From the IMG/VR virus record IMGVR_UViG_3300047393_000086, positions 12,992 to 76,991 of that record: DNA of 64,000 nt; one strand, given 5' to 3'. Position numbers and translations under genes: made by a program. Below, piece by piece: positions 41,470 through 63,076 of this stretch (positions are counted from its first letter, which is position 1; every line of letters starts with the position of its first letter). Below the pieces are notes generated by a model. It was given only the letters and a program-made list of their open reading frames with translations. It was not told the origin of the DNA and made no database searches. Source of the DNA: a virus.

Positions 41470-42666
41470 TTAAAATAATGATGTTGAATAAATTAAGTTT
41501 CTATTTAACGTGTGTAATCCAACTGCCGTAAGAACCCTGTTCAATGGATCAATTACACTTTTTTCAAATTGCATTTCATAATCAACTTGAGGTGCAATTT
41601 CATAAGGATGTGCTCCTGGTTGGTATGCAAATATTTCGCAAGTTCCATGTTTACAATGGTACAATTTTAATTTTTCACCATTACCAATCATTTTGTATTT
41701 GTTCTTAAACTTAGGATTCTGATTCATTAAGAAATTATAGAATCCTGCAGCTTTAACATTAGGAGGACATTTTAAACCATACTGAAATTCAATAGTGTCA
41801 TCAACAATATACTTTTCAATATTGTTAGTTCTTTTATTAAAACAAATTTCATCAATACTTGCTAATTGAAATTCTTTCTTACATTGTTTCAAATAATCTA
41901 CTAATCTTTTTAATAAAGACGCTGTAGGTTTTTCTGAAAGAATCAATTTAAGAATCTCAGTTAATTGCTTTCTTGCAAGTGCTGGAGTTGAACTTTGAAT
42001 TGTATCAAATCCAATAGTTTTAACCTTCTTTAATGATGGATATCGATCGTCAATTCCGATTTTATCTTCCCATGCAATATTTTGAAGATACTTTTTCTTA
42101 GCTAACCAAATTCCAGAGTATGCAATAGTTTCTAATTCAAACGTAAGGAAATTCTCGGTATTTGTTGCTTCAGCATATTTTTCCATACACTTAAAGATAT
42201 ATTCTTTAAGTCTAAAGTTATAAAGTTTCATAATGAATTGGTCAATTGATAGCTTTTCTTCAAGCCATTCAATAGATTCATACATCTCTTGAAACTGTAC
42301 GTAACATGAATCGGTATCAATATAGATAACTGAAGGTTTTACCAGCTTGTTTTTAATTTCTATATTGAAATATTCATGAACTGCTTTGTCTTTAATCCAA
42401 AACTCCTGAAAATATTTGTTAAGAATCTTTTCAGAATATAGAATCGCAGATTGACCCTGTAATGTGATTGATTCTGCGATATCTATATTAAAAAAGTGAA
42501 ACCATTTGTTTCCAAATGCGCCGTAAATCGAGTTAAGCATTACTTTTACTGCTTGTTCGTATGCGGTATATTTGGCTGACAACATAGAATAATGCTCAAC
42601 CAAGATTTTAATCTCGTCTTTTGTTAGATCGTCTTCTGGTTTTAGTATTAATTCTTCGATTGTCAT
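41470..42666 (-). CDS. gp43: family B DNA polymerase, C-terminal half (split)
   Basis: Motif B KVMLNSIYG, motif C YIDTDS, KKKY. Confidence 0.9.
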   Translation of the reverse strand: MTIEELILKPEDDLTKDEIKILVEHYSMLSAKYTAYEQAVKVMLNSIYGAFGNKWFHFFNIDIAESITLQGQSAILYSEKILNKYFQEFWIKDKAVHEYFNIEIKNKLVKPSVIYIDTDSCYVQFQEMYESIEWLEEKLSIDQFIMKLYNFRLKEYIFKCMEKYAEATNTENFLTFELETIAYSGIWLAKKKYLQNIAWEDKIGIDDRYPSLKKVKTIGFDTIQSSTPALARKQLTEILKLILSEKPTASLLKRLVDYLKQCKKEFQLASIDEICFNKRTNNIEKYIVDDTIEFQYGLKCPPNVKAAGFYNFLMNQNPKFKNKYKMIGNGEKLKLYHCKHGTCEIFAYQPGAHPYEIAPQVDYEMQFEKSVIDPLNRVLTAVGLHTLNRNLIYSTSLF

Positions 42667-44450: not shown

Positions 44451-45500
44451 TTACCTTTTTTGAAATTTGTTTATATTTTGATTAATTATTTCTCCATTTT
44501 CTATATCAATGGATCTATTAATAACTAAATCTTCTTTCCATTTTTTAGGTTTCATGATAGTATCTAAGTATGGAAGTAATGCACTTGAAATTTCACGAGA
44601 TGCTGCATTCCATAAATATGTTGGTGTATGGTCTACTGAATAGTATGAAATTCCTCTTTCTAATTTAATTATCGGTTCTTCAAAAGAGGTCGGAACTGCA
44701 AAAAAGAATCCCATACCACTATCACAGCTAATATCTATTATTGCTGCATTTTTCTTTAAAGAATCTAATTGTTCTTGAGTTTCAATATAATTTAAGGGTG
44801 CATTGACGTTTTGTAAAATACCGTTAAAAATTATATCGGCATTATTTAGGTCTTTACTAAGATCGTCATTTTTAAAAGATTTATAGTATACATCTGGATT
44901 TTTATCAGCAACTAAATGAGATTCTCTTTGAGTGTATACTATAATATTGTTAAATCCACGACCTTGTAGAGCATATATAGCTCCTCTACTTACTGAACCA
45001 TATCCTAAGATTACTACGTTTTTTCTAGGACCATAATGTCCATCCATTCCTTTCAATTCTAAAAAGTGTAGAACTCCAGCGTATCCTGCTAATTCATTGT
45101 TACGATAGAAAATATGAAGTTTTCCATGCTTATTTTCAATATTCATTTCCTCCCATGCCAACAATGTAAGTTTTTTCCTAATAGCAAGATCCGTAATATC
45201 TCGTTGTTGGACTGCATGAGTCCATCCGCATAATATCCCTCCAAATTTCATTTTTTCAAGATCTGTTGCTATTGGTTTTGGAAGTATAATAATATCGCAA
45301 TTATAAAGAGATTCTCTAGACCCTAAGGTACATCCCCAACTTTCTAGGTCAGCGTCAGTGTATCCATAATCCTCTCCATATCCATGTTCGAAGATTAATT
45401 CTTTAAGTAAAGATGGATCTATATTTTTAATATGATCAGGATAGATTGGTAATCTTTTCTCGTTCTCTTTATACGACGTTTTAAATACTCCTGTCTTCAT
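44451..45500 (-). CDS. ceo: N5-(carboxyethyl)ornithine synthase-like (AlaDh/PNT family)
   Basis: KENEKRLPI.P, EHGYG, GW.H.VQ, NNELAGYAGVLH, GYGSVSRGA, IDISCD, VDHTP; start MKTGVF. Confidence 0.8.
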   Translation of the reverse strand: MKTGVFKTSYKENEKRLPIYPDHIKNIDPSLLKELIFEHGYGEDYGYTDADLESWGCTLGSRESLYNCDIIILPKPIATDLEKMKFGGILCGWTHAVQQRDITDLAIRKKLTLLAWEEMNIENKHGKLHIFYRNNELAGYAGVLHFLELKGMDGHYGPRKNVVILGYGSVSRGAIYALQGRGFNNIIVYTQRESHLVADKNPDVYYKSFKNDDLSKDLNNADIIFNGILQNVNAPLNYIETQEQLDSLKKNAAIIDISCDSGMGFFFAVPTSFEEPIIKLERGISYYSVDHTPTYLWNAASREISSALLPYLDTIMKPKKWKEDLVINRSIDIENGEIINQNINKFQKR

Positions 45501-45504
45501 ATTG

Positions 45505-46596
45505 TTACTTAATATTAAAGAAGTATTTATATCCATCTTTTGCCTTAGGATCTGTTAATACAGTATAATCCATTGGCCATTGAGAAGATTCAATTTCTTT
45601 TTTGAATTTTGGATAGTAATTTTGGTGGCCAGGTACTACATATTTTAAATAAATATCCTCTAAGAATTCGTTGTCTAAAGATTCTCCATAAAAATCTTCG
45701 TACATTGCTTTGTAAACCTCACACATTTTAACACTTCCAAGTCCAGTTGCAGATGATGTTTCCATAATCCACATTTTTCCTTTTTTATCTACAACAATAT
45801 CTAACGCCCATAAATCTAGGTCTAAGAACGTTTTAATATCTTTACAGATTGACATTACATTTTCAATAAATTCAGGATCTACTTTGTTTTGGTCTTGATA
45901 AACATAAGTAAAACTGATTTTCTCTTCTGCTGTTTTTGTTTTAATTGAACGATCGTCCTCAATTCTCGGTACTCTTTCATTAATAACAAAAATCTTGTCT
46001 CTACACAACATTACTCTGTATTCTCTTGCAAAATCTATAAATTGACAGAATAAATCAAATTCGTCTTTGCTATCTTCTAATTCTTTGGCGCTATCAAACT
46101 TTTGAATTCCTAGTCCGCTATGTCCATCTTTTATTTTTGCAATTACTGGAAAACCAACATCTCCATTAATAGCCTCTTCTTTTGTAAAAACAGTATTTGG
46201 AAGCCAGTCAAATTTTGATGATGCTTTTGCAAATTTTACTTTGTCTCCTGAAAGTTGAAGCAATTCTCTTTTATTATAAAGATTGTCATTTTTAATTCCT
46301 TTATTTTTTAAAAACATCTCTGCTTCAGGGTGATTTGGTCCTCCAAATCCTCCATAATAAAGAATTGGTACATCAGAAGGTACCGAAACTTTATCATCTT
46401 CGAAATCTTCTTTTGTTGCGTAATTTAAGAATAGGTTACCTTTTGCGGCAATATTGTATTTCTTTTCGCGGCCATTAACATCACCTGAAGTTGCATGAAT
46501 GTCGTTTGACATCATAATCCATGCTACTTTTTTTGCGTATTTGTTTTTAAGATTTTCTTTGTATACGAATTCTTCAAAAAGCTTAATTGGAATCAT
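45505..46596 (-). CDS. ATP-grasp ligase (RimK-like) with capsid-targeting-like N-terminus
   Basis: DKVKF, P.T, FPVIAK...GHSGLGI, QFID..REYRV, ALDIV.....WIMETSS. Confidence 0.75.
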   Translation of the reverse strand: MIPIKLFEEFVYKENLKNKYAKKVAWIMMSNDIHATSGDVNGREKKYNIAAKGNLFLNYATKEDFEDDKVSVPSDVPILYYGGFGGPNHPEAEMFLKNKGIKNDNLYNKRELLQLSGDKVKFAKASSKFDWLPNTVFTKEEAINGDVGFPVIAKIKDGHSGLGIQKFDSAKELEDSKDEFDLFCQFIDFAREYRVMLCRDKIFVINERVPRIEDDRSIKTKTAEEKISFTYVYQDQNKVDPEFIENVMSICKDIKTFLDLDLWALDIVVDKKGKMWIMETSSATGLGSVKMCEVYKAMYEDFYGESLDNEFLEDIYLKYVVPGHQNYYPKFKKEIESSQWPMDYTVLTDPKAKDGYKYFFNIK

Positions 46597-49387: not shown

Positions 49388-50785
49388 TTATCTAAGTCTT
49401 TTGGCTAGTTCGTCAGCTTTTGTAAAGTATTCATAAGAAGTTTTCTTATAATCTTTACGTTGCGCATATAAGTCACTTAATATCTTTCTAAGGATAGAAT
49501 CTTCGGTCTTATATACTACTCCATTATCACATACAATTACGTTCTTGTCTTTACGTCTTTCATCAATTTCACTTTTATAAATCTTTTCAATGTAAGCATC
49601 GGGTGATATATTAAACTGACGCATAATTGAAGGATATAGTGAAGCAAAGTCAAATGCACTTACTCCTTCATAGAATCCTAAAATTGGTTCTTTTACAAAT
49701 GCTCCAGCATATTGGCCATCTTTTTGGCCATCTGCTTTTTCTTCACTTCCAATTCTCATTCCCTGTTCTGCGAGTTTTCTGGCCATAATAGCTTCAGTAA
49801 CTGCCACTGGAGAACTTGCCTTATAAAGTGGCATGTTTGTAATATTTGCAAGTGTTAGTAGTACTTCCATTGATTTTAATTTCTGATCAATATAATAAAC
49901 TAGCACTGAATCGACTACGTTATAATAAATGTATTTAACAAAATTATCTCGATATAAATCTTGAAGAGATCCTGTAAATTTAATCTTGTTAACATTAAGT
50001 ACTTGACTAGAAACATAATCAAGAGAATTGGATTCTTTTACCTTAACTGAACGATCGTATTTATCATACAATTGCATATAATCCAGAATTCCAATATGTA
50101 ATGGACGACCATCTGTATTATCAACAGATCCTGTCATTCCAACTTCGCTAATATTGATTTGAAGTCTTTTACAACGATTAACAATATATTGCCAGTCATA
50201 GTTAATAAAATTCCATCCAGTCATCATTGGAAACTTAGGTAAGAATTTCATTAAGAATGTATTTACCATGTCATACTCTGATTTGAACTTATGGTACTTA
50301 AATTCCCAATCCATATCAAAATCTTTGAAGTACTCATTAGTATCATCTTGAATCTTTTGAATTTTATCTGAAGCCATATCTTCAAGACCTAAAACGATTG
50401 CTTTACGGTCTGGTGTAATAATTGAGAATGAAAGGATTCTACTTTTAGCCTCTTCAGCTTTTGGAAATCCATCAACAATCTCAGTTTCAATATCGACGAA
50501 ATAAGTTTTCGGCATATTGTAAGCTGTTAGGTCAGCTTTATCTTTCTCAGAAAGGCTATCTAAGAAATATAGGATCGAAAACTTGTTGAATTGTCTTCCA
50601 TATCCTAATTTGACCGAACGGCCGTCCCAGTTTTTATACTCTGGACTGGCCGCTCTGTCTTTGTCATCACAAACATACCAGTTTTGGAACTTGTCCACTG
50701 GATATTGTTTGAATGCTACTTCTCCTTTTTCATTGTAGTATGAAATGATTACATCTTTTTCACGCTGTTCGATGTCTAATATCAT
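49388..50785 (-). CDS. gp43: family B DNA polymerase, N-terminal half (3'-5' exonuclease + motif A)
   Basis: DIET, GWN...YD, YNVVD, DFASLYPSIM...NISP; ends in the fingers helix. Confidence 0.9.
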   Translation of the reverse strand: MILDIEQREKDVIISYYNEKGEVAFKQYPVDKFQNWYVCDDKDRAASPEYKNWDGRSVKLGYGRQFNKFSILYFLDSLSEKDKADLTAYNMPKTYFVDIETEIVDGFPKAEEAKSRILSFSIITPDRKAIVLGLEDMASDKIQKIQDDTNEYFKDFDMDWEFKYHKFKSEYDMVNTFLMKFLPKFPMMTGWNFINYDWQYIVNRCKRLQINISEVGMTGSVDNTDGRPLHIGILDYMQLYDKYDRSVKVKESNSLDYVSSQVLNVNKIKFTGSLQDLYRDNFVKYIYYNVVDSVLVYYIDQKLKSMEVLLTLANITNMPLYKASSPVAVTEAIMARKLAEQGMRIGSEEKADGQKDGQYAGAFVKEPILGFYEGVSAFDFASLYPSIMRQFNISPDAYIEKIYKSEIDERRKDKNVIVCDNGVVYKTEDSILRKILSDLYAQRKDYKKTSYEYFTKADELAKRLR

Positions 50786-51253
50786 TTAATATCCTCTTTT
50801 TTGACGGTTAACATTTTCTTCGGCTTTTGCGAAGTAATAATTGTATGCTGTTTTTGCATCTAATCCGATTGAAGATGCATAGTTTATAAAGAAGTGTAAA
50901 ATATCTACCCATTCCATATAAAGTTCTTTTTTATCATCTTCAGAAAGGTCAGAGATTTTCATTGTTTCAAACTTTGAAAAGTCTTTTTTCCAATATTTCC
51001 ATACTGCATTTCCACTTCCATCTTTAATACCTCCAAGAGCATCTGTCATTTCGTGAATTTCATCAACTACAGCATGCGTGTTAACATGCCAAAAGTTCAT
51101 AATATCTCTAATTGACATCTCTTCGAAATTAAAACCATAAGTTTGCTCTTGCATTTTCTTTTGGTTTTCCATGATGTCAGCTAAATGTGTTGTTGATTGT
51201 TCGTAAAAGTCTTTTACTTCCAAATCTTTGCATTCATTGTCTATATTTGCCAT
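50786..51253 (-). CDS. dimeric dUTPase / dCTP pyrophosphatase-like
   Basis: DEIHEM, WKYWKK, EWVDILHF, K..EN..RQ..GY. Confidence 0.85.
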   Translation of the reverse strand: MANIDNECKDLEVKDFYEQSTTHLADIMENQKKMQEQTYGFNFEEMSIRDIMNFWHVNTHAVVDEIHEMTDALGGIKDGSGNAVWKYWKKDFSKFETMKISDLSEDDKKELYMEWVDILHFFINYASSIGLDAKTAYNYYFAKAEENVNRQKRGY

Positions 51254-51277
51254 ATTTAATTTTTTATAGTTGTTATA

Positions 51278-52327
51278 TTAAAAAAGAGCGTTTTGTTCAA
51301 AATTATTATTAAAAAAATATTCCATTAGATTCTCGTCTACCCTGGCTACTTTTCTTCGGCTAATTAAATGTGGATTGCTTCTCAATCGGTAATAAACTCC
51401 ATACTGGCAAAGGCCAACCTCACATCCATAAGTTTTAAGTTCATCTTGCTCATGCCTAAAAATCTTTTTACCATCAACTACAATATTGTGGGTAGATTCA
51501 TGTAATGGAATTTCTCCAATAAGTTCTTTATAATTTTCTCGGAACCAAATAACTCTATCACCATGTGGTACTGTACAATCTGAACCAAATATTAAATCTA
51601 ATGTAAATCTGGCTCCAGGGCCTGGTACACAATATCTTTCGTCATGGTCTATATTGATTCTTGGATTTACAGAGTTCGATGTTGAACAGTGATATCCGTA
51701 GTAAGACCCTACACCCTCGATTTCTGTTAGTATATTAAACATTTCAGATAAAGAGTTAACCTGGGCCATCCTTCCTGTGATTCCTCGAGGTATAAAGCTA
51801 GCAACCCATAGTAAAATATTAATCTTATGAGCATCTCGCGGTTGGTTTCTTAGTTCTGCGACATAATTATTGGCAGCTCCAAATAAACTAGTACGTAATT
51901 CGGTTGATCCATATATTGGTAGTCCTAAAGAAACAGCATCTTCTAAATTCTTACGAATCTTATTTTCATATTCTCGATCAACTAATAATCTTTCAAAATC
52001 TATTAGCGCTGTTTTTGGATTTGGATCTCTTGTAAGTACTTGGTGAATACCTCGGGCTCCATAGAAGTGAGAGATGATTGTGTTGCATATAATATTATCC
52101 ATCGACATAGGTGCATTGACAATGTTCTCCATGATATATCTCATACGATCATCCAACGTAATTTGTGGATGGAAATATTCAACAGTTTCGCCAAGTGCTT
52201 CATCGCCTCCGCTATCATAACTTTCAAGAACTCCCATATTGTAAAGGGCTCTTTCATTAACTTTATTAAAGAATCTTCCGACGTCTTTAATAATGTCCAT
52301 GTTTGCAATTTCTGCTAAGTTTTCCAT
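51278..52327 (-). CDS. HhH-fold DNA base-modifying protein (aGPT-Pplase / amino acid:DNA transferase-like)
   Basis: L..IEGVGSYYGY, PGPGA...L..IF, CEVGLCQY..Y, matching the G.G.F..Y / GPGA / E..LCE..KY family pattern. Confidence 0.6.
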   Translation of the reverse strand: MENLAEIANMDIIKDVGRFFNKVNERALYNMGVLESYDSGGDEALGETVEYFHPQITLDDRMRYIMENIVNAPMSMDNIICNTIISHFYGARGIHQVLTRDPNPKTALIDFERLLVDREYENKIRKNLEDAVSLGLPIYGSTELRTSLFGAANNYVAELRNQPRDAHKINILLWVASFIPRGITGRMAQVNSLSEMFNILTEIEGVGSYYGYHCSTSNSVNPRINIDHDERYCVPGPGARFTLDLIFGSDCTVPHGDRVIWFRENYKELIGEIPLHESTHNIVVDGKKIFRHEQDELKTYGCEVGLCQYGVYYRLRSNPHLISRRKVARVDENLMEYFFNNNFEQNALF

Positions 52328-52334
52328 TTATGTT

Positions 52335-53012
52335 TTATTTTTTAAACCAGCAATCGTATCCTCCAATATGTTTGAATACTTCAAAACTATTAACTTGATT
52401 TTTTGGGTATAATCCTGTTAATAAGTCAATTGTTGGTTGTGCAAATTGTTTTACTTTACCCATGTGTAATTCTATAAATAGAACGTCAGGATAATATTGG
52501 GCAATATCTTGAATTATGTCATACTCAGCACCTTCAACATCGACTTTGATAATATCTGGCTTGTAAGTTTCTAAAAGTTCTTTGATGTGAATATTTCTAA
52601 CTTCGTCGTATTCATTAAATGAACTTCTTTTAATAATTGAGGTTGAACAATGTGAACCTCCAGAATTTCCTTTATAGATCTTAATAGTTTTATCTTTACA
52701 TCCAGAAACTGCGGCATGCATAATGTTTGCCTTTGGTTCGTTTGCAAAACTATTTTGTAGCTTTTCAAAATTTCTTGTATCACATTCTACTGTGTATACT
52801 GCTGACGCTCCGCCGTCAATTGCAATTTTAGTAAAACCGCCAACATTACCTCCAAGATCTAGGCATACTTTACCAGTATAATCAACATCTTCATGTATAT
52901 AATGACGAAGACAATCTTTAATCATGTCTCTATCAACTCTTTCAGTAGCATCTAAATATTTACAGTATTCTCGTTTTAATTTATTTAATTGCTTTTGTTC
53001 TACTGTCCACAT
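52335..53012 (-). CDS. FkbM-family SAM-dependent methyltransferase
   Basis: LDLGGNVGGF, VEC...N...L..., AAVS, IKVDVEGAEY. Confidence 0.85.
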   Translation of the reverse strand: MWTVEQKQLNKLKREYCKYLDATERVDRDMIKDCLRHYIHEDVDYTGKVCLDLGGNVGGFTKIAIDGGASAVYTVECDTRNFEKLQNSFANEPKANIMHAAVSGCKDKTIKIYKGNSGGSHCSTSIIKRSSFNEYDEVRNIHIKELLETYKPDIIKVDVEGAEYDIIQDIAQYYPDVLFIELHMGKVKQFAQPTIDLLTGLYPKNQVNSFEVFKHIGGYDCWFKK

Positions 53013-53014
53013 AC

Positions 53015-53416
53015 TTATTTTTTTACTAAAGAAGATACAATATTTACTAATTGAATTTGGGGATGATTTTCTTGAATAATTTGGTATTGAATCGGGTCAT
53101 CTTCAAAAAATCTAGTAATGTTAACTCCATTATCTAAAAGATTTCCAATCGTTTTAGCTTTATGATTTCCTGAAAACGTTCTAGCCTCTACTGTATGATT
53201 TCCTCGTTGAGCAAGCGTCATTGGATTAAAGTAAACCTTGCACTTGATTCCGCGTTCTTTTAAGATTGCTTTAATTTCTTCTTGTTCATCGATACATCTC
53301 CCAGTTATAATAACGTCGCTTTCTGATCTTGGTGTAATTCCTATTGAAATTACTCCATCAAAATCATATCCATAAACTTCTCCGTTTGTTTTTTTCTTTT
53401 TAAAAATATTTAACAT
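53015..53416 (-). CDS. minimal HAD-family phosphatase
   Basis: DFDGV (motif I), ITGR (II), K (III), FEDD (IV). Confidence 0.8.
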   Translation of the reverse strand: MLNIFKKKKTNGEVYGYDFDGVISIGITPRSESDVIITGRCIDEQEEIKAILKERGIKCKVYFNPMTLAQRGNHTVEARTFSGNHKAKTIGNLLDNGVNITRFFEDDPIQYQIIQENHPQIQLVNIVSSLVKK

Positions 53417-53433
53417 TCACTGACTTTTTTGAT

Positions 53434-53463
53434 AAAAAAAGAGAGCTCGTAAGCTCTCTTTTT
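53434..53463. terminator. hairpin terminator after ino1
   Basis: AAAAAGAGAGC/GCTCTCTTTTT perfect stem. Confidence 0.7.
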
Positions 53464-53477
53464 CATAAGTTAATTAA

Positions 53478-54671
53478 TTAAAGAGCCTTAGTTGTAGCAA
53501 CTAATTGTTTTCTAGTAGAATCTGTTAAGCGTCTTGCAGCTAATTCAGTACACTCATAAACAGCATCCGAGAACATCATCTGATCTGGTGGAGTTTTTTG
53601 TGTAAACGCTGAAGGACCTCTTAATGCTCCTACAACTCCTAATTCTCTCGCTACTTTTAAGTAACGGATCGCGTCGATTACAACTCCTGCAGAGTTTGGT
53701 GAATCTTGTACGCTTAATTGAGCATCAAAAAGAACTGGCGCTCCTCCAAATCCTTCAAGTTCTAAACGGAAGTTAGCAACTTTGTTATCTCCATAGAATG
53801 AGATATACTCAGAAGGACCTGCATGTAAAAATGAATCTTCAGTTGAGATTCCTCTAATTTCATTTTGTGCACGGATAACATTTTCTTTCGAAATCTTTTT
53901 AGAAGCTAAACGTGATTTATCTTCCATGTTTAAGAAATCGGTGTTACCTCCAACATTTCTTTGGATGTGCGCTTTTACATGGTGACCTCTTTCAAAAGCC
54001 AATTCTTGCAACATTTGAGATAAAATACTTGCTCCAAATTGAGAACGCATATCATCTCCAATTAATGGAATTCCAGCATCAATGAATCTTTGCTCCCATG
54101 CAGGGTCAGATGCAATAAATACAGGAATACAGTTTACGAAAGAAATTCCAGTTTCTAGACAGATTTCAGCCCAAAATTCTGTAGTTTTTTGAGAACCTAC
54201 TGGTAAATAGTTTACCAATACTTCTACTTCATGCTCTTTTAATTTAGCAATGATTTGATCTTTCCACTCTCTTGATTTTCTGCTAGTCCAATCTGTACGA
54301 TTTTTATCAGTTGAGTTTCTTAATTTCTCGTCAACTAAAAATCTGTTTGCTTCTGGATAGTTATCCATCAATGCAGCGTAACCATCGATTACTGGTGCTT
54401 CGTAAACTGGAGCTGTAGAAGTAATAACATCAACGATGTCATACGCGCAGTTTGGTTTTTGTTTTAATGCATATCCAAGAGTTTGATTAACTTTACGTTC
54501 GTCAATCTCGAATCCACATACAAATTCAATATTTTCAGCTTTGTAACCTCCAATATCTGATTTCATCATTCCGGTAATGTTGTTCGTATTTTCTGTGTAG
54601 AACTGAACTCCTTCAACCAATGATTTTGCACAATTTCCTGTGCCAATAATTCCAACTTTAATTTTGTTCAT
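53478..54671 (-). CDS. ino1: myo-inositol-1-phosphate synthase
   Basis: G.GNCAKSLVEG, NYLPVGS, IGDDMRSQFGA, NVGGNTDFLNM, SKKISK, DSPNSAGVVIDAIR. Confidence 0.93.
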   Translation of the reverse strand: MNKIKVGIIGTGNCAKSLVEGVQFYTENTNNITGMMKSDIGGYKAENIEFVCGFEIDERKVNQTLGYALKQKPNCAYDIVDVITSTAPVYEAPVIDGYAALMDNYPEANRFLVDEKLRNSTDKNRTDWTSRKSREWKDQIIAKLKEHEVEVLVNYLPVGSQKTTEFWAEICLETGISFVNCIPVFIASDPAWEQRFIDAGIPLIGDDMRSQFGASILSQMLQELAFERGHHVKAHIQRNVGGNTDFLNMEDKSRLASKKISKENVIRAQNEIRGISTEDSFLHAGPSEYISFYGDNKVANFRLELEGFGGAPVLFDAQLSVQDSPNSAGVVIDAIRYLKVARELGVVGALRGPSAFTQKTPPDQMMFSDAVYECTELAARRLTDSTRKQLVATTKAL

Positions 54672-54724
54672 TTTGTTAAAAATTTAATTTTATATTAATT
54701 TATACTGGGTTTATTTAAAAAGTT

Positions 54725-55774
54725 TCAAAAAAGACTATTAATAGTTTTCTTTAATGTTTTATTTTTTTCGGACGTCTCGAAATCATATTGATAAAACTCT
54801 CTAGATAAGTGAACGGAACCTGGTTTCTCCATATAAGTATCTGCAAAATACTTTGGATCTTCCTCGTACCAATTACTTGGCCATTCGATTACATTCATAT
54901 TATATATAGCCGAGAGATTTACAACCTCTTCATTAAAGATTTGCATCAATTGAGTTCTTTCACGTTGAGAACCAATAAATGGGGTTCCTTTATAAAATCC
55001 AGTCTTTGGGATTCTGCGTTCTTCGAATTCGATTGGAAGTAATTTAACCACTGAAATCTTTTCAATATTAAGAGATTTTAAATGTTCAAAATAATTCTTT
55101 ACAAGTTTCTTAGTTGCATCTACTGGTTTTTCTTGTCGGCAAAGATGATGGCGAATATCGATATTTCCAAAGTAGGTTATCAAATGAGTTGTTCCTTCAG
55201 GTATATAGGATGCCATTCCCTCCTTCATAACTCCAAACAATGTTTTACCATCATTCCTACTAATGTTTCCACCTGGATGATAGACTGAAACTGAGTGTGA
55301 ATCTCCTAGAACAAATGTTCCGGAAGATAATTTTAATTCAATTGTTTGGGTTTCTTTACTCTTTTTTGAAAGTTCATCAACATTAAGAGATGCCCATAAT
55401 GGAGAGCATGCTTTCATTCTACTTTGTGCGAATGCTCCGACATCTGGCATTTCTCTATTTAAACAATAGATTTGTCCTTTAAAATCTAAGAATCTTTTAA
55501 TTCTTTCTGCTGGCTCATCAGTTGCTCCACCGAATAGATTATAAGACCCTTGAAATTCCATTGGAAGTGCTACTAACCAAACGTCGAAAGAATGAATATC
55601 CTCAGACTTAGTAAGTACTTCAACATCTAGACCTAAAGACTTTAATTGATTTGCTAAGAGAAAAGCCCATGCACTTTTATGGCTAGCTTTCTTAGAACTA
55701 TATGTAGTTACTACATCATCAATTGCAATCTTCTTGCCTTGTAACGATTCTAAAACTTCGTAAATGTTAACCAT
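54725..55774 (-). CDS. hypothetical protein with SGNH-like C-terminal domain
   Basis: LGDSHS, FGNID, terminal SVHLS; start taken at MVNIYE. Confidence 0.5.
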   Translation of the reverse strand: MVNIYEVLESLQGKKIAIDDVVTTYSSKKASHKSAWAFLLANQLKSLGLDVEVLTKSEDIHSFDVWLVALPMEFQGSYNLFGGATDEPAERIKRFLDFKGQIYCLNREMPDVGAFAQSRMKACSPLWASLNVDELSKKSKETQTIELKLSSGTFVLGDSHSVSVYHPGGNISRNDGKTLFGVMKEGMASYIPEGTTHLITYFGNIDIRHHLCRQEKPVDATKKLVKNYFEHLKSLNIEKISVVKLLPIEFEERRIPKTGFYKGTPFIGSQRERTQLMQIFNEEVVNLSAIYNMNVIEWPSNWYEEDPKYFADTYMEKPGSVHLSREFYQYDFETSEKNKTLKKTINSLF

Positions 55775-56042
55775 TGTTTTGTTTTTCTTCAATGTAGTTA
55801 TCCAATCCTTGGATGTATGCAACTGCATCTAATAGGTTATCACGCTTGTGATTGTAAGATTCTCTTGAAAATTTAAGTGCAACTAATGCCTTAAACATGT
55901 GTTCTCCGGTAACTTCAATTCCGGTCATACCAGTAAAAATCATTGCAGCTCTGTCCATGCCTTCTGAGAAAGGACCATATTGTCTATCTGCTTCTTCTGA
56001 GCGGTTATTAACTATTCCGCTTGCTTCATCTAAAATGTTCAT
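55767..56042 (-). CDS. DUF6378-like protein (nucleotide-modification-associated small helical domain)
   Basis: ILDEA..IV..R....YG, K.SRE...HKRDNLLD...Y. Confidence 0.7.
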   Translation of the reverse strand: MNILDEASGIVNNRSEEADRQYGPFSEGMDRAAMIFTGMTGIEVTGEHMFKALVALKFSRESYNHKRDNLLDAVAYIQGLDNYIEEKQNNG

Positions 56043-56353: not shown

Positions 56354-56403
56354 GATGTATAAGTTTTAATTTGATATGTAAATATAATCAAAACATTTGA
56401 CAT

Positions 56404-56448
56404 AAAAAAATCCTGGTTAAAAAAGTTATTAACAATTTTACCAGGATT
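56404..56448 (-). terminator. intrinsic terminator closing the ncRNA region
   Basis: AATCCTGGT/ACCAGGATT stem followed by a T run. Confidence 0.65.
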
Positions 56449-56459
56449 CTAATTTAATA

Positions 56460-56718
56460 CGGGATAGTTGTTCGTGATTTTCTTCTCGGCAGAATAACCC
56501 TCTTTATAGTCTTCGGCTTTTACTTTCGCGAGCGTCTACTAAACTTCGACCCATCCTACTTGTAACCTATTGGGGTGGTATGACTTGTGACCCATTTTCT
56601 AGTGTTAGTCTTCACATTGTCTAGGGCTTCAACGTTTTAGAGGGCAAACCATTTTAAAACTCCACTTTTTTCTAGACCTCTGTCATAGTTGTATGTTACT
56701 TTTTGCTGTACCTATCCG
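56460..56718 (-). ncRNA. putative structured RNA 2 (about 260 nt)
   Basis: 5' GGATAG-GT-ACAGCAA; 3' end CTATCC pairs with the 5' arm; internal complementary pairs TATGAC/GTCATA and GTCTAG/CTAGAC; no credible ORF; GC above background. Confidence 0.5.
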
Positions 56719-56719
56719 C

Positions 56720-56779
56720 CAGGTTCCATTCCGTATGCTAGTTAATAATTGCTTGAGTATTGTTTGCTGTAAGGAACCT
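56720..56779 (-). ncRNA. putative structured RNA 1 (about 60 nt)
   Basis: 5' AGGTTCC-TT-ACAGCAA; 3' GGAACCT closes a 7-bp stem; same architecture as RNA 2. Confidence 0.5.
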
Positions 56780-56787
56780 AATTTCTT

Positions 56788-57153
56788 TTATTTAATAATT
56801 ATGAATGAACCTCCTCTAGAAGATGCAGATTCAGTTTTACCATCTGATAAAGTTACTTTAGATACTGCTTCTCCACCTAGTGTTTGAGCAACCTCTTCTG
56901 CAACTTGAGTTAATTCAAAAAATACAATGCTACCTGCAGAATCTGCTAATATTTTATATCCATCTCCTTCAACTACATTTGGTTTTTTAACAATCTTGTT
57001 AATAGTGCTATCAACCTTTTTAGCTGTCATATTAATAATGAAAACATCATTACGGCTTTTATATGCCTTTGGACTTTGTCCATTTTCAATTGGTTCGAAT
57101 GCATTATGATCAGATTCGTTAACAAATTGTTCAAATAATTTAATATGTTTCAT
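56788..57153 (-). CDS. MKHIKLFE-family putative internal virion protein
   Basis: MKHIKLFEQFVNES; late promoter at 57171. Confidence 0.6.
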   Translation of the reverse strand: MKHIKLFEQFVNESDHNAFEPIENGQSPKAYKSRNDVFIINMTAKKVDSTINKIVKKPNVVEGDGYKILADSAGSIVFFELTQVAEEVAQTLGGEAVSKVTLSDGKTESASSRGGSFIIIK

Positions 57154-57179
57154 ATTAATTTTGTTTTCTTTTATATATC

Positions 57180-58607
57180 TTAAACAATTGGAGAGTATCT
57201 CTCACTCATGATTGTTTTATCCATGATTTGCTGTGGAGATTCAATATCTCCTCCAAGTAAGCTTGTCATAATTGCTGGAGAGAATCCTGAAATCAATGCA
57301 GTTCCTTCTGTATCAAATGCAACTGGTACTCCACCATTTCTGGATTGAATGTTCCAATAAACAATTTGAGGCATTTTGTAACCTGAAGACTCATACATGT
57401 CATTAATTACTTGTTGAGCTGTTAGGTTCCATGACGCTTGATTTCTCCAACCACTGGATCTGGTTGCTGCGTTAAACTCCATATCTGATAGGATTAGGAT
57501 TTTATTTGGCATTTCATCTTGAGATAATCCATGCTTAGTGGCCTGATCTAAGATCAGCTTGAAAGTTGCCTCAAGATCTGTAGACATTCCCCAATCGGAG
57601 TTTGACATCTGTGTGTAGCGATCTTTCAATGAACCACTTAATACTTGTAACTGCGGAGTACTTGAGAATGTTATAAATGCATCTTTAAAAGGACCTTCAT
57701 TTCTTTCAGAAATATAAAGACCTAAAGAGATTGCAACATCCATACATGTTACTGATTTACTACCACCTGCTGAGCAGGACATAGAACCTGAAACATCCAC
57801 CACTGGTAAAATCATATCGTTTGCTCCTTCTAAATAATTTGGAAGTGCTTTCCATTGTTCGTTTGCTACGGTTGCATTTCCATAATTTAATGATTTTGTA
57901 ACATCATAAGGATAAACTGCACCTGCATTAATTGTGGCCTCTCCTTTTACAAGAGAAGCAATATAAGCTGAATAACTTTCATATGCATTTTTACCAAAGG
58001 CTTTTTGGTATCTTGCAGAAGCAACTGATGGTAATTTACCGAATTCAATAGAATCCCATTCTTTAGCACACATTTTAGTTTCAACTACATTAGTCAAATT
58101 AACTAAAGTTTTACGGTATTGTTTTGGAGATAAATCCATGAATTTACGTAACTTTTCAGCATTTTGACCCTTACGTGGCATCCATTTTGCACATAAACCA
58201 TTTTCTGCTTTAATAGCATTTTCAATTATAATTAATGCATCATTTTCTAAATAAGTTCCAAAAAGAGATAATAAGTCATCAAAACGACCATACTCTGGAA
58301 TTAAGTGTAAATTTGGTTTTAGGACCAAATCATGATTTTCAGCTAAATAAACTAAAATGTCTTTAAAGACTTGACGCTCTCCGGCTCCACCGCGAACATC
58401 TCTAGCCCAAAAAAGTAGTTTCATAGCACGCTTAGGATCTTCGTTAAATGCTTTTGAAAAGGTTGCGATCAAACGTTGTTTGTCTTGGCCTCTCATTGCT
58501 CCAATATTAAAGAAAAGGTCAACACATGCATTCAATGAAGTTGAATTTGTTGCCATTCCATTTTCTGTTACGATGTCTTCTTGTCTTAATGCGTCTACGA
58601 ATTTCAT
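57180..58607 (-). CDS. DUF2828-type TROVE/Ro-like protein with VWA domain
   Basis: TENG, RDVRGGAGER, YGRFDDL, AKWMPR, MIDAS DVSGSM, ILSDMEF, VYWN. Confidence 0.8.
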   Translation of the reverse strand: MKFVDALRQEDIVTENGMATNSTSLNACVDLFFNIGAMRGQDKQRLIATFSKAFNEDPKRAMKLLFWARDVRGGAGERQVFKDILVYLAENHDLVLKPNLHLIPEYGRFDDLLSLFGTYLENDALIIIENAIKAENGLCAKWMPRKGQNAEKLRKFMDLSPKQYRKTLVNLTNVVETKMCAKEWDSIEFGKLPSVASARYQKAFGKNAYESYSAYIASLVKGEATINAGAVYPYDVTKSLNYGNATVANEQWKALPNYLEGANDMILPVVDVSGSMSCSAGGSKSVTCMDVAISLGLYISERNEGPFKDAFITFSSTPQLQVLSGSLKDRYTQMSNSDWGMSTDLEATFKLILDQATKHGLSQDEMPNKILILSDMEFNAATRSSGWRNQASWNLTAQQVINDMYESSGYKMPQIVYWNIQSRNGGVPVAFDTEGTALISGFSPAIMTSLLGGDIESPQQIMDKTIMSERYSPIV

Positions 58608-60748: not shown

Positions 60749-63076
60749 TTACCAGCCGTAACTTTTAGTTTCGATTTTCTTAGTATAATCACTAATGTTT
60801 TTTGCGTATTTCGTTAATTCACGTTCGTAATAATCAGTGTCATATCCTGCTGCTTTTTCTTTTTCGTCACTAGCAACAGCCTGTACATATCTATTATATT
60901 CATCTAAGATGTTTCTCATTAAATTTGAAGCATCTCCTATTTTAACTTCTTTTCCTCTTGGATCTAATCCAATTAGCATATCGCCATATTTTCCTTTTTC
61001 TCCTTTAGTTAAAGCATCTTTGATTTGATTTGATAATGCATCAATTGCATCTAAAACTACTTGGTCAATTGGCATTGCAGCTGCTTTTTTAGCTAAAATT
61101 GCATTATATCTTGCTTTATTTTCATCTTTAAATGCTCTAGGATCCATTATTGCAGTTGCTCCTTTTCTTGCAGCTTCTCTGTCTGCTTTTAATGAAGATG
61201 TTGAATATCTTGCATCAAGAACTGTTAAGTCTAAACAATATGCTCTATCAGCTAAATCAACTACTTGTTTCAAACTTGAAATACCGGTACCATATTGATC
61301 GTTAGCACTTGATTTATTGATTCCAGCAGAATCATCTCTTTTAGTTTTTACTAAAGTTCTACCAGTTGCTTGTCTACTGTGCTTGCTCCATTCTGTATTC
61401 ATCCATTCGTTAGAACCGTCTGTTATTGCTAATAATGTATTTGCAGGAATTGATTTTGCATTCCATGAGTTTTTACCAGCATATGGATTTTCTTTTTCAT
61501 TTGTTGTAAAGTAAAAATAAACAGCTCTTGCTCTTTTCTCTTTCTTTGCCTGATCTGGTGTCATTTCGAGAATATCAATATCTTGAATTTTGTCAAGTGC
61601 TAATTTCGCCATGTTGTAAAATGCTTGTGGAAGATCTTTTGGCATTGCGTATGCACCTATTAATAAACTTGCAAGTTTTGTAGAAGCAAAAGCCTCGTTT
61701 AATGTACCTTCATTTAATTTATTCTCAACGAATTCTGAGAATGATTCATAAATAAATTTCGTTTTCATATCTTTTGTGTTTTTATTTTCATCTAAGTCTA
61801 TTGCCCAACCATATTCAACGTATGCAATTGCGTCTTCAGGATCAACATCCCATTTAACTGCTGCATCTAATACAATTTTTCTTGTAATTTTTGAATTTGG
61901 ATATTTTGAAATTGCTTTGTCGAAACCGCCAGGAACCCAAATTTTAGGGGCTTTTTCAGTTGCTTCAGCAACCATAACATTTTTTAGAATTGTTTTCCCA
62001 GACTTAGATAAACTAATTCCATCTTCAGATACATTAAAGTGTCGCGCATTTCTTTTTAACCATCTTTTAGAATCTGTTGTCATTTCTTTTAATAAGTTGT
62101 CAAATTCTACTTGAGATATTTTACCATCTTTGATAGCTTCTAATACTTTATTTCTAATTTTTGCTGCTTTACCAACAATAACTGCTGGATGATTTTCAGT
62201 ATATTGTCTTTTGATTGTAACGTTTCTTTCATTAACTACAGATTCTGCAGCCATTCCATAACAATCAGCGAATTCATCGATGTCAAATCCGTAATGATCT
62301 ACTAGATCAACGATTTCGTCAGGGAAATCCATCTCATCATTTCTCATTGATTTTCTAAGACCAGTTACCTTGTCATAGTTTGTATAAACAAAGTCAGCTA
62401 AGTCATAGCATGTCGGTTTATCTCCGGCCATGTCTACTAATTTATCTAAAGGTAATGCTTTAGCTTCAGTTACTACAGATTCTGCAACGTTAGATTCCCA
62501 ATAGTCTTGCAGTTTTTCAAATTCACTACGACCCATATTAGAAATCATATATTCAATAATGTCATTATCGTAATCCTCTGCTTCATCAGCATAACCTCCT
62601 GGTGTATCGATGTAATCTTTACCCATGATTTTTTTAATTGCTGATTCTGGCATACTGTCGATTTCCTCTAAGAAATCTTCAAAGTTTTCAGTGTTTTTAA
62701 AACCTTTAGCTTCATCTAATTCTTCTGAATTTTTATCATATGCATCTAAAAATGATTCATTTGTAAATGCTTTTTTCATGTTTTTAGCAATTGTATCTAC
62801 TGAATCATTTTTCTTACCATATATAGGATTTGAAGGTACCGCCATATTCATAACATTTCCATTTTGATAAATGTTATATGAACCTCCATCAAATTCTTCT
62901 CCGTCAATATCAAGGTCAAATGAATCTTCCTCTAATGTTCTTTTGTTTACAGTAACTTTACTTTTGTCTATTTTAGACATTGCATCGGCAAATTTCTGTG
63001 CAACCTCTAAAGTCTCTTCCTTTGTAAGACCTGCTGGTTTTCCGTATGCTTCATTTAAGAATTGGTTGAAATTCAT
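60749..63076 (-). CDS. large late protein, probable protease-processed polyprotein
   Basis: MNFNQFLNEA; repeated linkers AESVV(T/N)E and LNE; late promoter at 63099. Confidence 0.55.
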   Translation of the reverse strand: MNFNQFLNEAYGKPAGLTKEETLEVAQKFADAMSKIDKSKVTVNKRTLEEDSFDLDIDGEEFDGGSYNIYQNGNVMNMAVPSNPIYGKKNDSVDTIAKNMKKAFTNESFLDAYDKNSEELDEAKGFKNTENFEDFLEEIDSMPESAIKKIMGKDYIDTPGGYADEAEDYDNDIIEYMISNMGRSEFEKLQDYWESNVAESVVTEAKALPLDKLVDMAGDKPTCYDLADFVYTNYDKVTGLRKSMRNDEMDFPDEIVDLVDHYGFDIDEFADCYGMAAESVVNERNVTIKRQYTENHPAVIVGKAAKIRNKVLEAIKDGKISQVEFDNLLKEMTTDSKRWLKRNARHFNVSEDGISLSKSGKTILKNVMVAEATEKAPKIWVPGGFDKAISKYPNSKITRKIVLDAAVKWDVDPEDAIAYVEYGWAIDLDENKNTKDMKTKFIYESFSEFVENKLNEGTLNEAFASTKLASLLIGAYAMPKDLPQAFYNMAKLALDKIQDIDILEMTPDQAKKEKRARAVYFYFTTNEKENPYAGKNSWNAKSIPANTLLAITDGSNEWMNTEWSKHSRQATGRTLVKTKRDDSAGINKSSANDQYGTGISSLKQVVDLADRAYCLDLTVLDARYSTSSLKADREAARKGATAIMDPRAFKDENKARYNAILAKKAAAMPIDQVVLDAIDALSNQIKDALTKGEKGKYGDMLIGLDPRGKEVKIGDASNLMRNILDEYNRYVQAVASDEKEKAAGYDTDYYERELTKYAKNISDYTKKIETKSYGW

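What the first reader, a model, noticed from the sequence alone, without database searches (positions are those of the whole stretch)
50786..56042. Candidate inositol-based DNA hypermodification system
Seen: a contiguous same-strand block under class-II promoters, running into the polymerase N-half: DUF6378, SGNH-like protein, Ino1, HAD phosphatase, FkbM methyltransferase, aGPT-Pplase/amino acid:DNA transferase-like HhH protein, dUTPase-like enzyme. Known: Ino1 converts glucose-6-phosphate to inositol phosphate. In 5-hmdU phages, transferases of this family displace pyrophosphate from activated 5-hmdU with N- or O-nucleophiles such as glycine or serine. FkbM enzymes are typically O-methyltransferases. 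Inference: Ino1 plus HAD supply myo-inositol, the transferase attaches it to a base in DNA, and FkbM (and perhaps the SGNH protein) decorate it, giving a cyclitol-modified base I have not seen described. Caveats: no dUMP hydroxymethylase or 5-hmdU DNA kinase is recognisable in this window, and a terminator-like hairpin lies between ino1 and the HAD gene.
Basis: partly seen in the sequence, partly recalled or inferred. Interest (0 to 1): 0.9.

Follow-up and report, generated by a model that had tools for sequence, protein, structure and literature searches.

The report
Phage inositol-linked hydroxymethylcytosine DNA-modification cassette
An uncultured T4-like phage carries a widely conserved gene set that joins a two-gene kit for making the sugar alcohol inositol to enzymes built to work on a flipped-out pyrimidine in DNA, which points to an inositol-bearing DNA base that nobody has yet shown chemically.

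Summary
The gene block is real and strongly conserved. It reads DUF6378, a two-domain SGNH-fold protein, Ino1, a mini-HAD phosphatase, an FkbM methyltransferase, an all-helical HhH protein and a gp56-type dCTPase, next to the polymerase N-half.

- The HhH protein is Pfam HMUDK_hel, not aGPT-Pplase/AADT by sequence. Its fold is closest to the solved transferase PUGT, and it keeps an invariant Glu-x3-Cys.
- The "dUTPase" is a T4 gp56 dCTPase homologue.
- The missing hydroxymethylase exists in relatives. It sits beside the cassette in 17 of 80 loci and always carries the cytosine-type Asp, so the base is probably 5-hmC, not 5-hmdU.
- No kinase is present. The SGNH-like protein takes its place and is fused to the HhH domain in cultured Aeromonas phages. 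One metagenomic protein fuses FkbM, HhH and SGNH.

In IMG/VR, 75 of 80 Ino1-centred viral loci lie within 10 kb of one of three DNA-modification gene sets. My best reading, at about 0.55, is a cyclitol ether on 5-hmC. The chemistry is wholly inferred, and no paper in the library describes it. The scan has already flagged this cassette on at least eight other genomes.

The parts
55767..56042 (-). DUF6378 small protein (91 aa), first gene of the block; role unknown
   Evidence: PF19905 at E 1.1e-8. It heads the cassette in 34 of 80 Ino1-centred loci.
54725..55774 (-). Two-domain protein with an N-terminal Rossmann-like alpha/beta domain and a C-terminal SGNH-fold domain. It is the candidate activator of, or acyl/group-transferase on, the 5-hydroxymethyl group. 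The longest ORF starts at 55828; the probable start is M19 at 55774.
   Evidence: It has no Pfam hit and matches phrog_13881/17781. The AF2 model has pLDDT 92.3. Residues 147-338 match SGNH/GDSL esterases and O-acetyltransferases at Z 10-12.6 and Foldseek probability 1.0. G-D-S159-H, G-N204-I-D206 and S320-V-H322 are invariant. It is fused to the HhH domain in Aeromonas phage 44RR2.8t ORF233c (39% identity, 1e-61) and in P0131.
53478..54671 (-). Ino1-family myo-inositol-phosphate synthase (397 aa)
   Evidence: PF01658 at 81.7 bits. TIGR03450 scores 293 bits, below its 638 cut-off. M. tuberculosis Ino1 (1gr0) matches at E 1.9e-79, against 1.5e-41 for the five-membered-cyclitol-phosphate synthase 6k96.
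53431..53464 (-). Intrinsic-terminator-like hairpin between ino1 and the HAD gene
   Evidence: 13-bp stem at -16.1 kcal/mol, z = -4.13, with a U-run.
53015..53416 (-). Minimal HAD-type phosphatase (133 aa), the fixed partner of Ino1
   Evidence: DxDGV, (T/S)GR, K86 and D106-D107 are invariant in 24 homologues. It lies directly downstream of Ino1 in 67 of 80 loci, and also in Cr30, Moby and RP13. Pfam and PDB profile searches gave no hit. The Atlas neighbours are small viral HAD phosphatases at 0.85-0.88, which is a lead only.
52335..53012 (-). FkbM-family SAM methyltransferase (225 aa), an accessory part of the cassette
   Evidence: PF05050 at 58 bits and TIGR01444 at 64 bits. It is present in 42 of 80 HhH-centred loci. 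It is fused N-terminally to the HhH domain in P0130, P0131 and P0170.
51278..52327 (-). All-helical HhH DNA-glycosylase-like protein (349 aa) of the HMUDK_hel family. It is the candidate base-flipping transferase acting on the activated 5-hydroxymethylpyrimidine.
   Evidence: PF18723 at 50.6 bits, with no AADT or aGPT-Pplase hit. The AF2 model has pLDDT 92.2. The best solved match is PUGT (8z2m) at Z 9.6, then QNG1 at 9.4, then about 20 HhH glycosylases. W174, E303 and C307 are invariant. There is no Walker A motif.
50786..51253 (-). gp56-type all-alpha NTP pyrophosphatase (155 aa), a probable dCTPase/dUTPase that clears the canonical nucleotide
   Evidence: phrog_173. It shares 30-40% identity (E to 3e-17) with gp56 dCTP pyrophosphatases of T4-like phages such as RB51 and RB16.

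Best explanation
This is a post-replicative hypermodification cassette for 5-hydroxymethylcytosine in the phage's own DNA, and the added group is most likely an inositol-type cyclitol.

Proposed steps:
1. The gp56-like enzyme removes dCTP. A gp42-like dCMP hydroxymethylase, encoded elsewhere in this fragmentary genome and adjacent to the cassette in relatives, supplies hm-dCMP. The split B-family polymerase then builds hmC DNA.
2. Ino1 cyclises glucose-6-phosphate to inositol phosphate. The mini-HAD removes the phosphate, either before or after transfer.
3. The HhH protein binds DNA and flips the hmC into a pocket formed by Trp174, Glu303 and Cys307.
4. The SGNH-like partner stands where 5-hmdU phages have a P-loop kinase. 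It converts the 5-CH2OH into an ester leaving group.
5. As in AADT enzymes, Cys attack at C6 expels that group to give an exocyclic methylene. A cyclitol hydroxyl captures it, producing an ether.
6. FkbM, where present, O-methylates the adduct.

Shown here: gene families, folds, fusions and co-occurrence. Inferred: every chemical step, the identity of the base, and the identity of the group attached.
For: Functional unit:
- The SGNH-like and HhH proteins are one 795-aa polypeptide in Aeromonas phage 44RR2.8t.
- FkbM, HhH and SGNH-like form one 981-aa protein, P0131.

DNA-base enzyme:
- The HhH protein has a Pfam HMUDK_hel hit.
- The top 25 structural matches are all HhH base-flipping enzymes, led by PUGT at Z 9.6.
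- Invariant E303-x3-C307 and W174 are collinear with PUGT E243, C247 and W146.
- The matching Cys and Glu are essential in AADTs, whose ViI member makes an ether with a serine hydroxyl (PMC8989533).

Cytosine as the base:
- TS-family genes lie within 10 kb of the cassette in 17 of 80 loci.
- The one in relative G001 matches T4 dCMP hydroxymethylase best.
- All of them have Asp at the T4 D179 position, whereas true thymidylate synthases have Asn.
- The neighbouring gene is a gp56 dCTPase homologue.

Inositol link:
- Ino1 is present in 77 of 80 HhH-centred loci. The three exceptions are cut by a contig end.
- Of 80 Ino1-centred viral loci, 47 carry SGNH/HhH, 23 carry an AADT and 5 carry 7-deazaguanine genes; only 5 carry none.
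- In cultured phages Ino1 plus HAD sit beside an AADT (Cr30), inside FolE-QueC-DpdA-QueE (Moby), or near HMUDK_hel and HMUD2 (RP13).
- The cassette has no nucleotidyltransferase or kinase. This fits inositol acting as a nucleophile rather than as an activated donor (sequence content).
Against: - There are no chemical data on any of these phages.
- The hydroxymethylase is not in the window or its 77-kb contig. It is inferred from relatives.
- The HhH protein shows no sequence-level homology to AADT. QNG1, a nucleotide hydrolase, matches its fold almost as well as PUGT does.
- The Glu-x3-Cys motif also occurs in ordinary HMUDK_hel members. It may therefore mark base binding rather than transfer.
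- The Aeromonas phages have the fused enzyme without Ino1, so the enzymes can work without a phage inositol supply.
- SGNH block V lacks the usual Asp.
- A strong terminator separates ino1 from the HAD gene.
- Ino1 scores below the NCBIfam equivalog cut-off, so its product could be a different cyclitol phosphate.
Confidence: 0.55

Rival explanations
1. The SGNH-like, HhH and FkbM machine modifies hydroxymethylcytosine without inositol, for example by O-acylating or O-methylating it. Ino1 plus HAD are then a separate auxiliary metabolic kit that happens to sit in the same early-gene region.
For: - The fused SGNH-HhH enzyme occurs in Aeromonas phages that have no Ino1.
- SGNH enzymes are esterases or O-acyltransferases.
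- FkbM enzymes are O-methyltransferases and are fused to the HhH domain.
- A terminator splits ino1 from the downstream genes.
Against: - Ino1 and HAD lie between the SGNH-like and HhH genes in nearly every locus (77 of 80).
- The same kit is tied to two other, unrelated DNA-modification gene sets, so 75 of 80 loci are linked in total.
- In the Aeromonas phages a vSGLT-like sugar symporter sits next to the fused enzyme and could import the substrate instead.
Confidence: 0.17
2. The enzymes act on free nucleotides or on RNA rather than on polymerised DNA. The modified nucleotide would be made before replication, or a tRNA base would be the target.
For: The second-best structural match is QNG1/DUF2419, which hydrolyses a free nucleotide (Z 9.4 against 9.6). 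The cassette sits among nucleotide-pool enzymes: the gp56-like protein and RNR.
Against: HMUDK_hel and PUGT work on DNA. About 20 further structural matches are DNA glycosylases. The known hm-pyrimidine hypermodifications are post-replicative (PMC8989533).
Confidence: 0.08
3. The target is 5-hydroxymethyluracil (thymidine hypermodification).
For: The Pfam family is named after the 5-hmdU DNA kinase, and its best structural relative acts on 5-PmdU. T4 gp56-type enzymes also hydrolyse dUTP (established knowledge).
Against: All 17 aligned cassette-linked hydroxymethylases (16 from the loci plus G001) carry the cytosine-type Asp, not the Asn of dUMP-using enzymes. No dUMP hydroxymethylase or 5-HMUDK P-loop kinase was found.
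Confidence: 0.07
4. Ino1 is a host-takeover gene that feeds inositol lipids, mycothiol-like thiols or osmolytes, and has no link to DNA.
For: Ino1 serves these roles in bacteria (established knowledge). The Ps15 authors read it as a bacterial-type acquired gene (PMC9025141).
Against: 75 of 80 viral Ino1 loci lie within 10 kb of DNA-modification genes. No lipid or thiol pathway gene was seen in the cassette.
Confidence: 0.05

Closest known systems
Thymidine hypermodification by 5-HMUDK plus AADT (aGPT-Pplase clade 2): phages ViI, M6, PaMx11 (PUGT gp46), PhiW-14, SP10
   Same: A pyrimidine is hydroxymethylated at nucleotide level. An HhH-type enzyme then flips the base out of duplex DNA. The hydroxymethyl group is turned into a leaving group and displaced through a Cys-dependent exocyclic methylene. 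ViI gp247 even uses a hydroxyl nucleophile and makes an ether. The window's HhH protein is in Pfam HMUDK_hel, has PUGT as its best solved fold match, and keeps Glu-x3-Cys.
   Different: The base is probably cytosine. No P-loop kinase is present, and an SGNH-fold two-domain protein takes its place, as shown by fusions. There is no sequence-level AADT membership. The supply genes make a cyclitol, not an amino acid or polyamine. An FkbM methyltransferase is attached.
T4-type hmC pathway (gp42 dCMP hydroxymethylase, gp56 dCTPase, alpha/beta-glucosyltransferases) and RB69-type arabinosyl-hmC
   Same: There is a gp56 homologue in the cassette. Relatives carry gp42-like enzymes with the cytosine-specific Asp. 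The phage has a T4-like replication module. The hmC would be decorated after replication.
   Different: No glycosyltransferase or NDP-sugar pathway is present. Inositol has no anomeric carbon, so it cannot be transferred as a glycosyl group. This implies that the base is the activated partner, not the sugar.
Mycothiol and phosphatidylinositol pathways (Ino1, then Ins-3-P used as acceptor, then a phosphatase)
   Same: Ino1 is followed by a dedicated phosphatase, and the inositol (phosphate) acts as a nucleophile or acceptor.
   Different: The acceptor chemistry would be on DNA, not on a sugar nucleotide or CDP-diacylglycerol. The phosphatase is a minimal HAD, not an IMPase.

Membership tests
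Myo-inositol-phosphate synthase (Ino1; PF01658, TIGR03450) | Pfam catalytic-domain match above the gathering score | tested here: met
   81.7 bits against 27.
Myo-inositol-phosphate synthase (Ino1; PF01658, TIGR03450) | NCBIfam equivalog score above the curated cut-off | tested here: not met
   293 bits against 638. It is a family member, but equivalence of function is not certified.
Myo-inositol-phosphate synthase (Ino1; PF01658, TIGR03450) | Closer to a true Ino1 than to MIPS-like enzymes with other products | tested here: met
   1gr0 matches at E 1.9e-79, against 1.5e-41 for the five-membered-cyclitol-phosphate synthase 6k96. The N-terminal GxGNCA NAD motif aligns.
HAD phosphatase superfamily | Four signature motifs (DxDx[TV]; S/T; K; [DE]D) | tested here: met
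   D18, D20, G21 and V22; T/S38, G39 and R40; K86; and D106 and D107 are invariant or nearly so in 24 sequences.
HAD phosphatase superfamily | Profile or fold match to known HAD proteins | tested here: inconclusive
   There was no Pfam, NCBIfam or PDB-sequence hit. Atlas neighbours are viral HAD clusters at 0.85-0.88 only.
SGNH/GDSL hydrolase-acyltransferase | SGNH alpha/beta fold | tested here: met
   Residues 147-338 match at Z 10-12.6, rmsd about 3-4 Å, 150-170 residues aligned. Foldseek probability is 1.0.
SGNH/GDSL hydrolase-acyltransferase | Blocks I (GDS), III (GxND) and V (DxxH) with the Ser-Asp-His triad | tested here: inconclusive
   GDS159H and GN204ID206 are invariant. Block V reads S320-V-H322, so the Asp is missing. 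There is no Pfam Lipase_GDSL hit.
HMUDK_hel (PF18723) | Pfam match above the gathering score over most of the model | tested here: met
   50.6 bits against 25, covering profile positions 48-276 of 281. 118 of the 120 listed homologues carry the same precomputed Pfam.
5-hmdU DNA kinase (5-HMUDK) | P-loop kinase domain | tested here: not met
   The 349-aa model is all-helical. There is no Walker A motif in it or in the SGNH-like protein.
Amino acid:DNA transferase (AADT / aGPT-Pplase2, PF18724) | Sequence-profile membership | tested here: not met
   There was no PF18724 hit even at E 10. hhalign against the Cr30 AADT gave probability 0.2. The family profile found no PDB sequence.
Amino acid:DNA transferase (AADT / aGPT-Pplase2, PF18724) | PUGT-like two-bundle HhH fold | tested here: met
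   8z2m is the top match among 48,161 chains at Z 9.6 with 221 residues aligned. Foldseek TM is 0.41-0.47 and not significant. Z lies in the range where helical folds can match by arrangement alone.
Amino acid:DNA transferase (AADT / aGPT-Pplase2, PF18724) | Essential Cys with neighbouring Glu (PUGT E243/C247) | tested here: inconclusive
   E303-x3-C307 is invariant and has the same spacing and relative position. No residue-level structural alignment was available.
T4-type hmC replacement (gp42 plus gp56) | dCMP hydroxymethylase with Asp at the T4 D179 position | tested here: inconclusive
   It is absent from the window and its 77-kb contig. It is present in relative G001 and in 17 cassette loci, always with Asp.
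T4-type hmC replacement (gp42 plus gp56) | gp56 dCTPase homologue | tested here: met
   30-40% identity to annotated gp56 or dCTP pyrophosphatases, E to 3e-17.
FkbM methyltransferase (PF05050, TIGR01444) | Domain match above the cut-offs | tested here: met
   58.2 bits against 22.7, and 63.9 against 37.7.

The most novel reading that the evidence does not exclude
Phage DNA carries a cyclitol ether, 5-(inosityl-O-methyl)cytosine, which is O-methylated in lineages with FkbM. It is made by a new activation route in which an SGNH-fold enzyme esterifies hmC in place of the kinase used by thymidine-modifying phages. An HMUDK_hel-type Cys enzyme then transfers the cyclitol. The Ino1-HAD pair is a portable supply module. 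It has been recruited by three unrelated DNA-modification systems: SGNH/HhH, AADT and 7-deazaguanine. Inositol-decorated bases would therefore be widespread in environmental phages.
Probability: 0.4. Interest if true: 0.92.

Novelty: new variant of a known kind. Interest (0 to 1): 0.82.

Why it matters
If true, it adds a new chemical class, cyclitols, to the known decorations of phage DNA. It also adds a new way of activating hydroxymethylpyrimidines in DNA without a kinase. The system is common: at least 307 HhH-type and at least 457 Ino1 relatives occur in IMG/VR viral contigs. It would therefore bear on restriction and CRISPR evasion in aquatic phages, on sequencing artefacts in viromes, and on enzyme tools for labelling 5-hmC. 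Cultured phages carry parts of it (Aeromonas 44RR2.8t and 31, Caulobacter Cr30, Stenotrophomonas Moby and Ps15, Ralstonia RP13), so the idea can be tested directly by nucleoside mass spectrometry.

Tried and rejected
- Nucleotide search of the block against cultured phages found only a 353-nt match to Cr30 ino1.
- Foldseek of the HhH model against the PDB gave nothing at E <= 0.001.
- The profile of the HhH family against PDB sequences gave no hit.
- hhalign against the Cr30 AADT gave probability 0.2.
- HAD protein: a phmmer search and a family-profile search against PDB sequences gave only chance-level hits.
- The gp56-like protein against PDB sequences gave only chance-level hits.
- PF00303 was not found in the own contig.
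- The Tet_JBP (PF12851) search of five relatives found nothing. Its controls were silent too, so no inference can be drawn.
- A search for close relatives of the triple fusion P0131 in IMG/VR found none.
- The only bacterial hit, Crocinitomix algicola, has the HhH homologue without the cassette.
- The sigma-70 promoter scan gave fewer sites than shuffles, and GTATAAAT is not enriched. The promoter class is therefore left open.
- No Nanopore DNA run was listed for the block.
- The literature search turned up no data on 44RR2.8t DNA bases.
The context of P0131 and a predicted SGNH-HhH complex could therefore not be obtained.
- Considered and dropped: that the 349-aa protein is itself a kinase. 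It has no P-loop and is all-helical.

Full report
**What is there**

The window is part of a 76,991-bp IMG/VR viral contig that CheckV rates at about 27% complete. All genes run on the minus strand. The contig is a myovirus with a T4-like replication module:
- a split B-family polymerase, with the N-half at 49388-50785 and the C-half at 41470-42666
- RNR, a UvsX-like RecA, a gp41-like helicase and gp46/47-like proteins
- portal, prohead protease and tail sheath

| Coordinates | Protein | Evidence |
|---|---|---|
| 55767-56042 | DUF6378 | PF19905 |
| 54725-55828 | unassigned 367-aa ORF | homologues are mostly 349 aa, so the start is probably M19 at 55774 |
| 53478-54671 | Ino1 | PF01658; M. tuberculosis Ino1 at E 1.9e-79, much better than the five-membered-cyclitol synthase |
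| 53015-53416 | 133-aa protein | see HAD paragraph below |
| 52335-53012 | FkbM methyltransferase | PF05050, TIGR01444 |
| 51278-52327 | 349-aa protein | Pfam HMUDK_hel |
| 50786-51253 | 155-aa NTP pyrophosphatase | see below |

The hairpin between ino1 and the next gene is a convincing intrinsic terminator. It has a 13-bp stem at -16.1 kcal/mol and z = -4.1. The promoter class could not be checked.

**The individual proteins**

- **133-aa protein.** It has no database hit. An alignment of 24 diverse homologues shows the four HAD motifs as invariant: DxDGV, T/S-G-R, K and DD.
- **349-aa "SGNH-like" protein.** It folds with pLDDT 92 into an N-terminal alpha/beta domain plus a C-terminal domain. 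The C-terminal domain matches GDSL esterases and peptidoglycan O-acetyltransferases at Z 10-12.6. GDS159H, GN204ID and S320-V-H322 are invariant. The usual block-V Asp is absent.
- **51278-52327.** By sequence it belongs to HMUDK_hel (50.6 bits), not to AADT or aGPT-Pplase. Its model (pLDDT 92) is all-helical and has no P-loop. Among 48,161 solved chains the best match is PUGT, the 5-PmdU glycinyltransferase of phage PaMx11 (Z 9.6). Next come QNG1 (9.4) and about twenty HhH DNA glycosylases. The family's invariant residues include W174 and E303-x3-C307. In PUGT, W146 and C247 clamp the flipped base and E243 holds the metal. In AADTs the corresponding Cys and Glu are essential for a mechanism that passes through an exocyclic methylene. 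The equivalence rests on identical spacing and collinear position, not on a residue-level superposition. The same motif also occurs in ordinary HMUDK_hel proteins.
- **155-aa enzyme.** It is a homologue of T4-type gp56 dCTPase, not a trimeric dUTPase.

**Evidence that the genes work together**

In cultured Aeromonas phages (44RR2.8t, 31 and relatives) a single 795-aa protein combines the SGNH-like part (39% identity, 1e-61) and the HhH part (2e-22). One metagenomic protein of 981 aa, P0131, fuses FkbM, HhH and SGNH-like in that order. P0130 and P0170 fuse FkbM to the HhH domain.

In 80 IMG/VR loci found with the HhH family, down to 44% identity, the gene counts are:

| Gene | Loci with it (of 80) |
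|---|---|
| Ino1 | 77 (the other three are cut by a contig end) |
| HAD gene | 76 |
| SGNH-like gene | 73 |
| FkbM | 42 |

**Which base**

The window and its contig hold no thymidylate-synthase-family gene. A 139-kb relative, whose HhH protein is 87% identical, does have one. Its best solved matches are T4 dCMP hydroxymethylase and MilA, not thymidylate synthases. The same gene lies within 10 kb of the cassette in 17 of the 80 loci. All aligned copies, like the 44RR2.8t gp42 homologue, carry Asp at the position of T4 D179. The canonical thymidylate synthases of Cr30 and 44RR2.8t carry Asn there. From established work on T4 gp42, that residue sets cytosine against uracil preference. Together with the gp56 homologue, this points to 5-hmC rather than 5-hmdU.

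**Is inositol part of it**

The link rests on association only, but the association is strong and runs in both directions. I sampled 80 viral loci around Ino1, ranked by likeness to Cr30 Ino1. The HAD gene follows Ino1 in 67 of them, with a median gap of 4 nt. The neighbouring DNA-modification genes sort the loci as follows, and the classes do not overlap:

| Neighbouring gene set | Loci (of 80) |
|---|---|
| SGNH-like and/or HhH genes | 47 |
| AADT (PF18724-type) just upstream | 23 |
| FolE/QueC/QueE/DpdA 7-deazaguanine genes | 5 |
| none of these | 5 |

In cultured phages the kit sits in similar company:
- In Caulobacter phage Cr30 it lies next to an AADT (E 1.3e-52) and a weak TET-associated-glycosyltransferase-like gene.
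- In Stenotrophomonas phage Moby it lies between FolE and QueC-DpdA-QueE.
- In Ralstonia phage RP13 it lies near a standalone HMUDK_hel protein (E 3e-47) and an HMUD2 kinase-like protein.

An Ino1 tree shows about 14 changes of context, against about 33 for shuffled labels. The kit has therefore moved between systems, though relatedness inflates this contrast. The Aeromonas phages lack Ino1. There a vSGLT-like sodium/sugar symporter sits beside the fused enzyme. This is compatible with import of the substrate, or equally with no need for inositol.

**Mechanism proposed**

Inositol has no anomeric carbon, and the cassette has no nucleotidyltransferase. The cyclitol can therefore only be the nucleophile, and the base must be the activated partner. 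In thymidine-modifying phages a P-loop kinase fused to, or partnered with, an HMUDK_hel domain makes the leaving group, and an AADT displaces it. ViI gp247 does this with a serine hydroxyl and forms an ether. Here the SGNH-like protein occupies the kinase's place in the fusions. I therefore read it as the activator, esterifying the 5-CH2OH. I read the HhH protein as the base-flipping, Cys-dependent transferase, with FkbM decorating the product. All of this is inference, and I put it at about 0.55. That the block is some DNA hydroxymethylpyrimidine-modification system I put at about 0.85.

**Rivals**

- A modification without inositol, with Ino1-HAD unrelated (0.17).
- Action on free nucleotides or RNA, because QNG1 matches nearly as well as PUGT (0.08).
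- 5-hmU as the target (0.07).
- Ino1 as a host-metabolism gene (0.05).

**Novelty and earlier work**

Full-text searches for inositol together with phage hypermodification, hydroxymethylcytosine or DNA modification found no paper describing such a base. The Ps15 paper only lists Ino1 as a bacterial-type gene. The scan itself has flagged the same cassette on at least eight other genomes, with similar readings. Before opening those notes I had already found the cytosine-type Asp in the G001 hydroxymethylase, the 44RR2.8t fusion and the Cr30 AADT context. The three-context pattern I checked afterwards with my own counts.

**Limits**

- There is no chemistry.
- The hydroxymethylase is inferred from relatives.
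- The HAD fold is supported by motifs only.
- The N-domain of the SGNH-like protein was not examined alone.

Noticed in passing
window 41470-42666 and 49388-50785: The B-family DNA polymerase is split into separate N- and C-half genes about 6.7 kb apart. RNR subunits, an ATP-grasp gene and an AlaDh/PNT-like gene lie between them.
   Followed up: partly
window 44451-46596: Two adjacent genes sit between RNR and the polymerase C-half. One is a weak ATP-grasp (R2K / D-Ala-D-Ala-ligase-like) protein. The other is an alanine-dehydrogenase/PNT-fold oxidoreductase. They could form a small amino-acid-modifying pathway.
   Followed up: no
window 56354-58607: A 475-aa protein of phrog_850 ('RNA-binding protein') is followed by a non-coding stretch of about 430 nt before the cassette.
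   Followed up: no
window 60749-63076: A 775-aa ORF has no PHROG family at E <= 1e-5.
   Followed up: no
L002:3277-4800 (Aeromonas phage 44RR2.8t ORF234c): A phage-encoded sodium/sugar symporter closest to Vibrio vSGLT (349 bits) lies directly upstream of the fused SGNH-HhH gene. These phages lack Ino1.
   Followed up: partly
L001 (Caulobacter phage Cr30) and L037: Cr30 has an AADT and an Ino1-HAD kit. Its only thymidylate-synthase-family gene is a canonical one (373 bits, Asn type). What supplies a hydroxymethylpyrimidine there is unexplained.
   Followed up: partly
L189:9950-11029 (Crocinitomix algicola contig17): A bacterial genome (GC 33.6%) encodes a standalone homologue of the HhH protein at 52% identity. 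NCBI names it 'nucleotide kinase domain-containing protein'. No Ino1, HAD or HMase homologue lies within 10 kb (blastp); the hmmsearch for the SGNH-like protein returned no parsed rows, but neither did the one for the HhH gene itself, so that step did not work.
   Followed up: partly
L041:9631-10221 (Ralstonia phage RP13 ORF132): An Acb1-family anti-CBASS protein (PF23474, E 8.7e-15) sits between the Ino1-HAD kit and the HMUD2-like gene.
   Followed up: no
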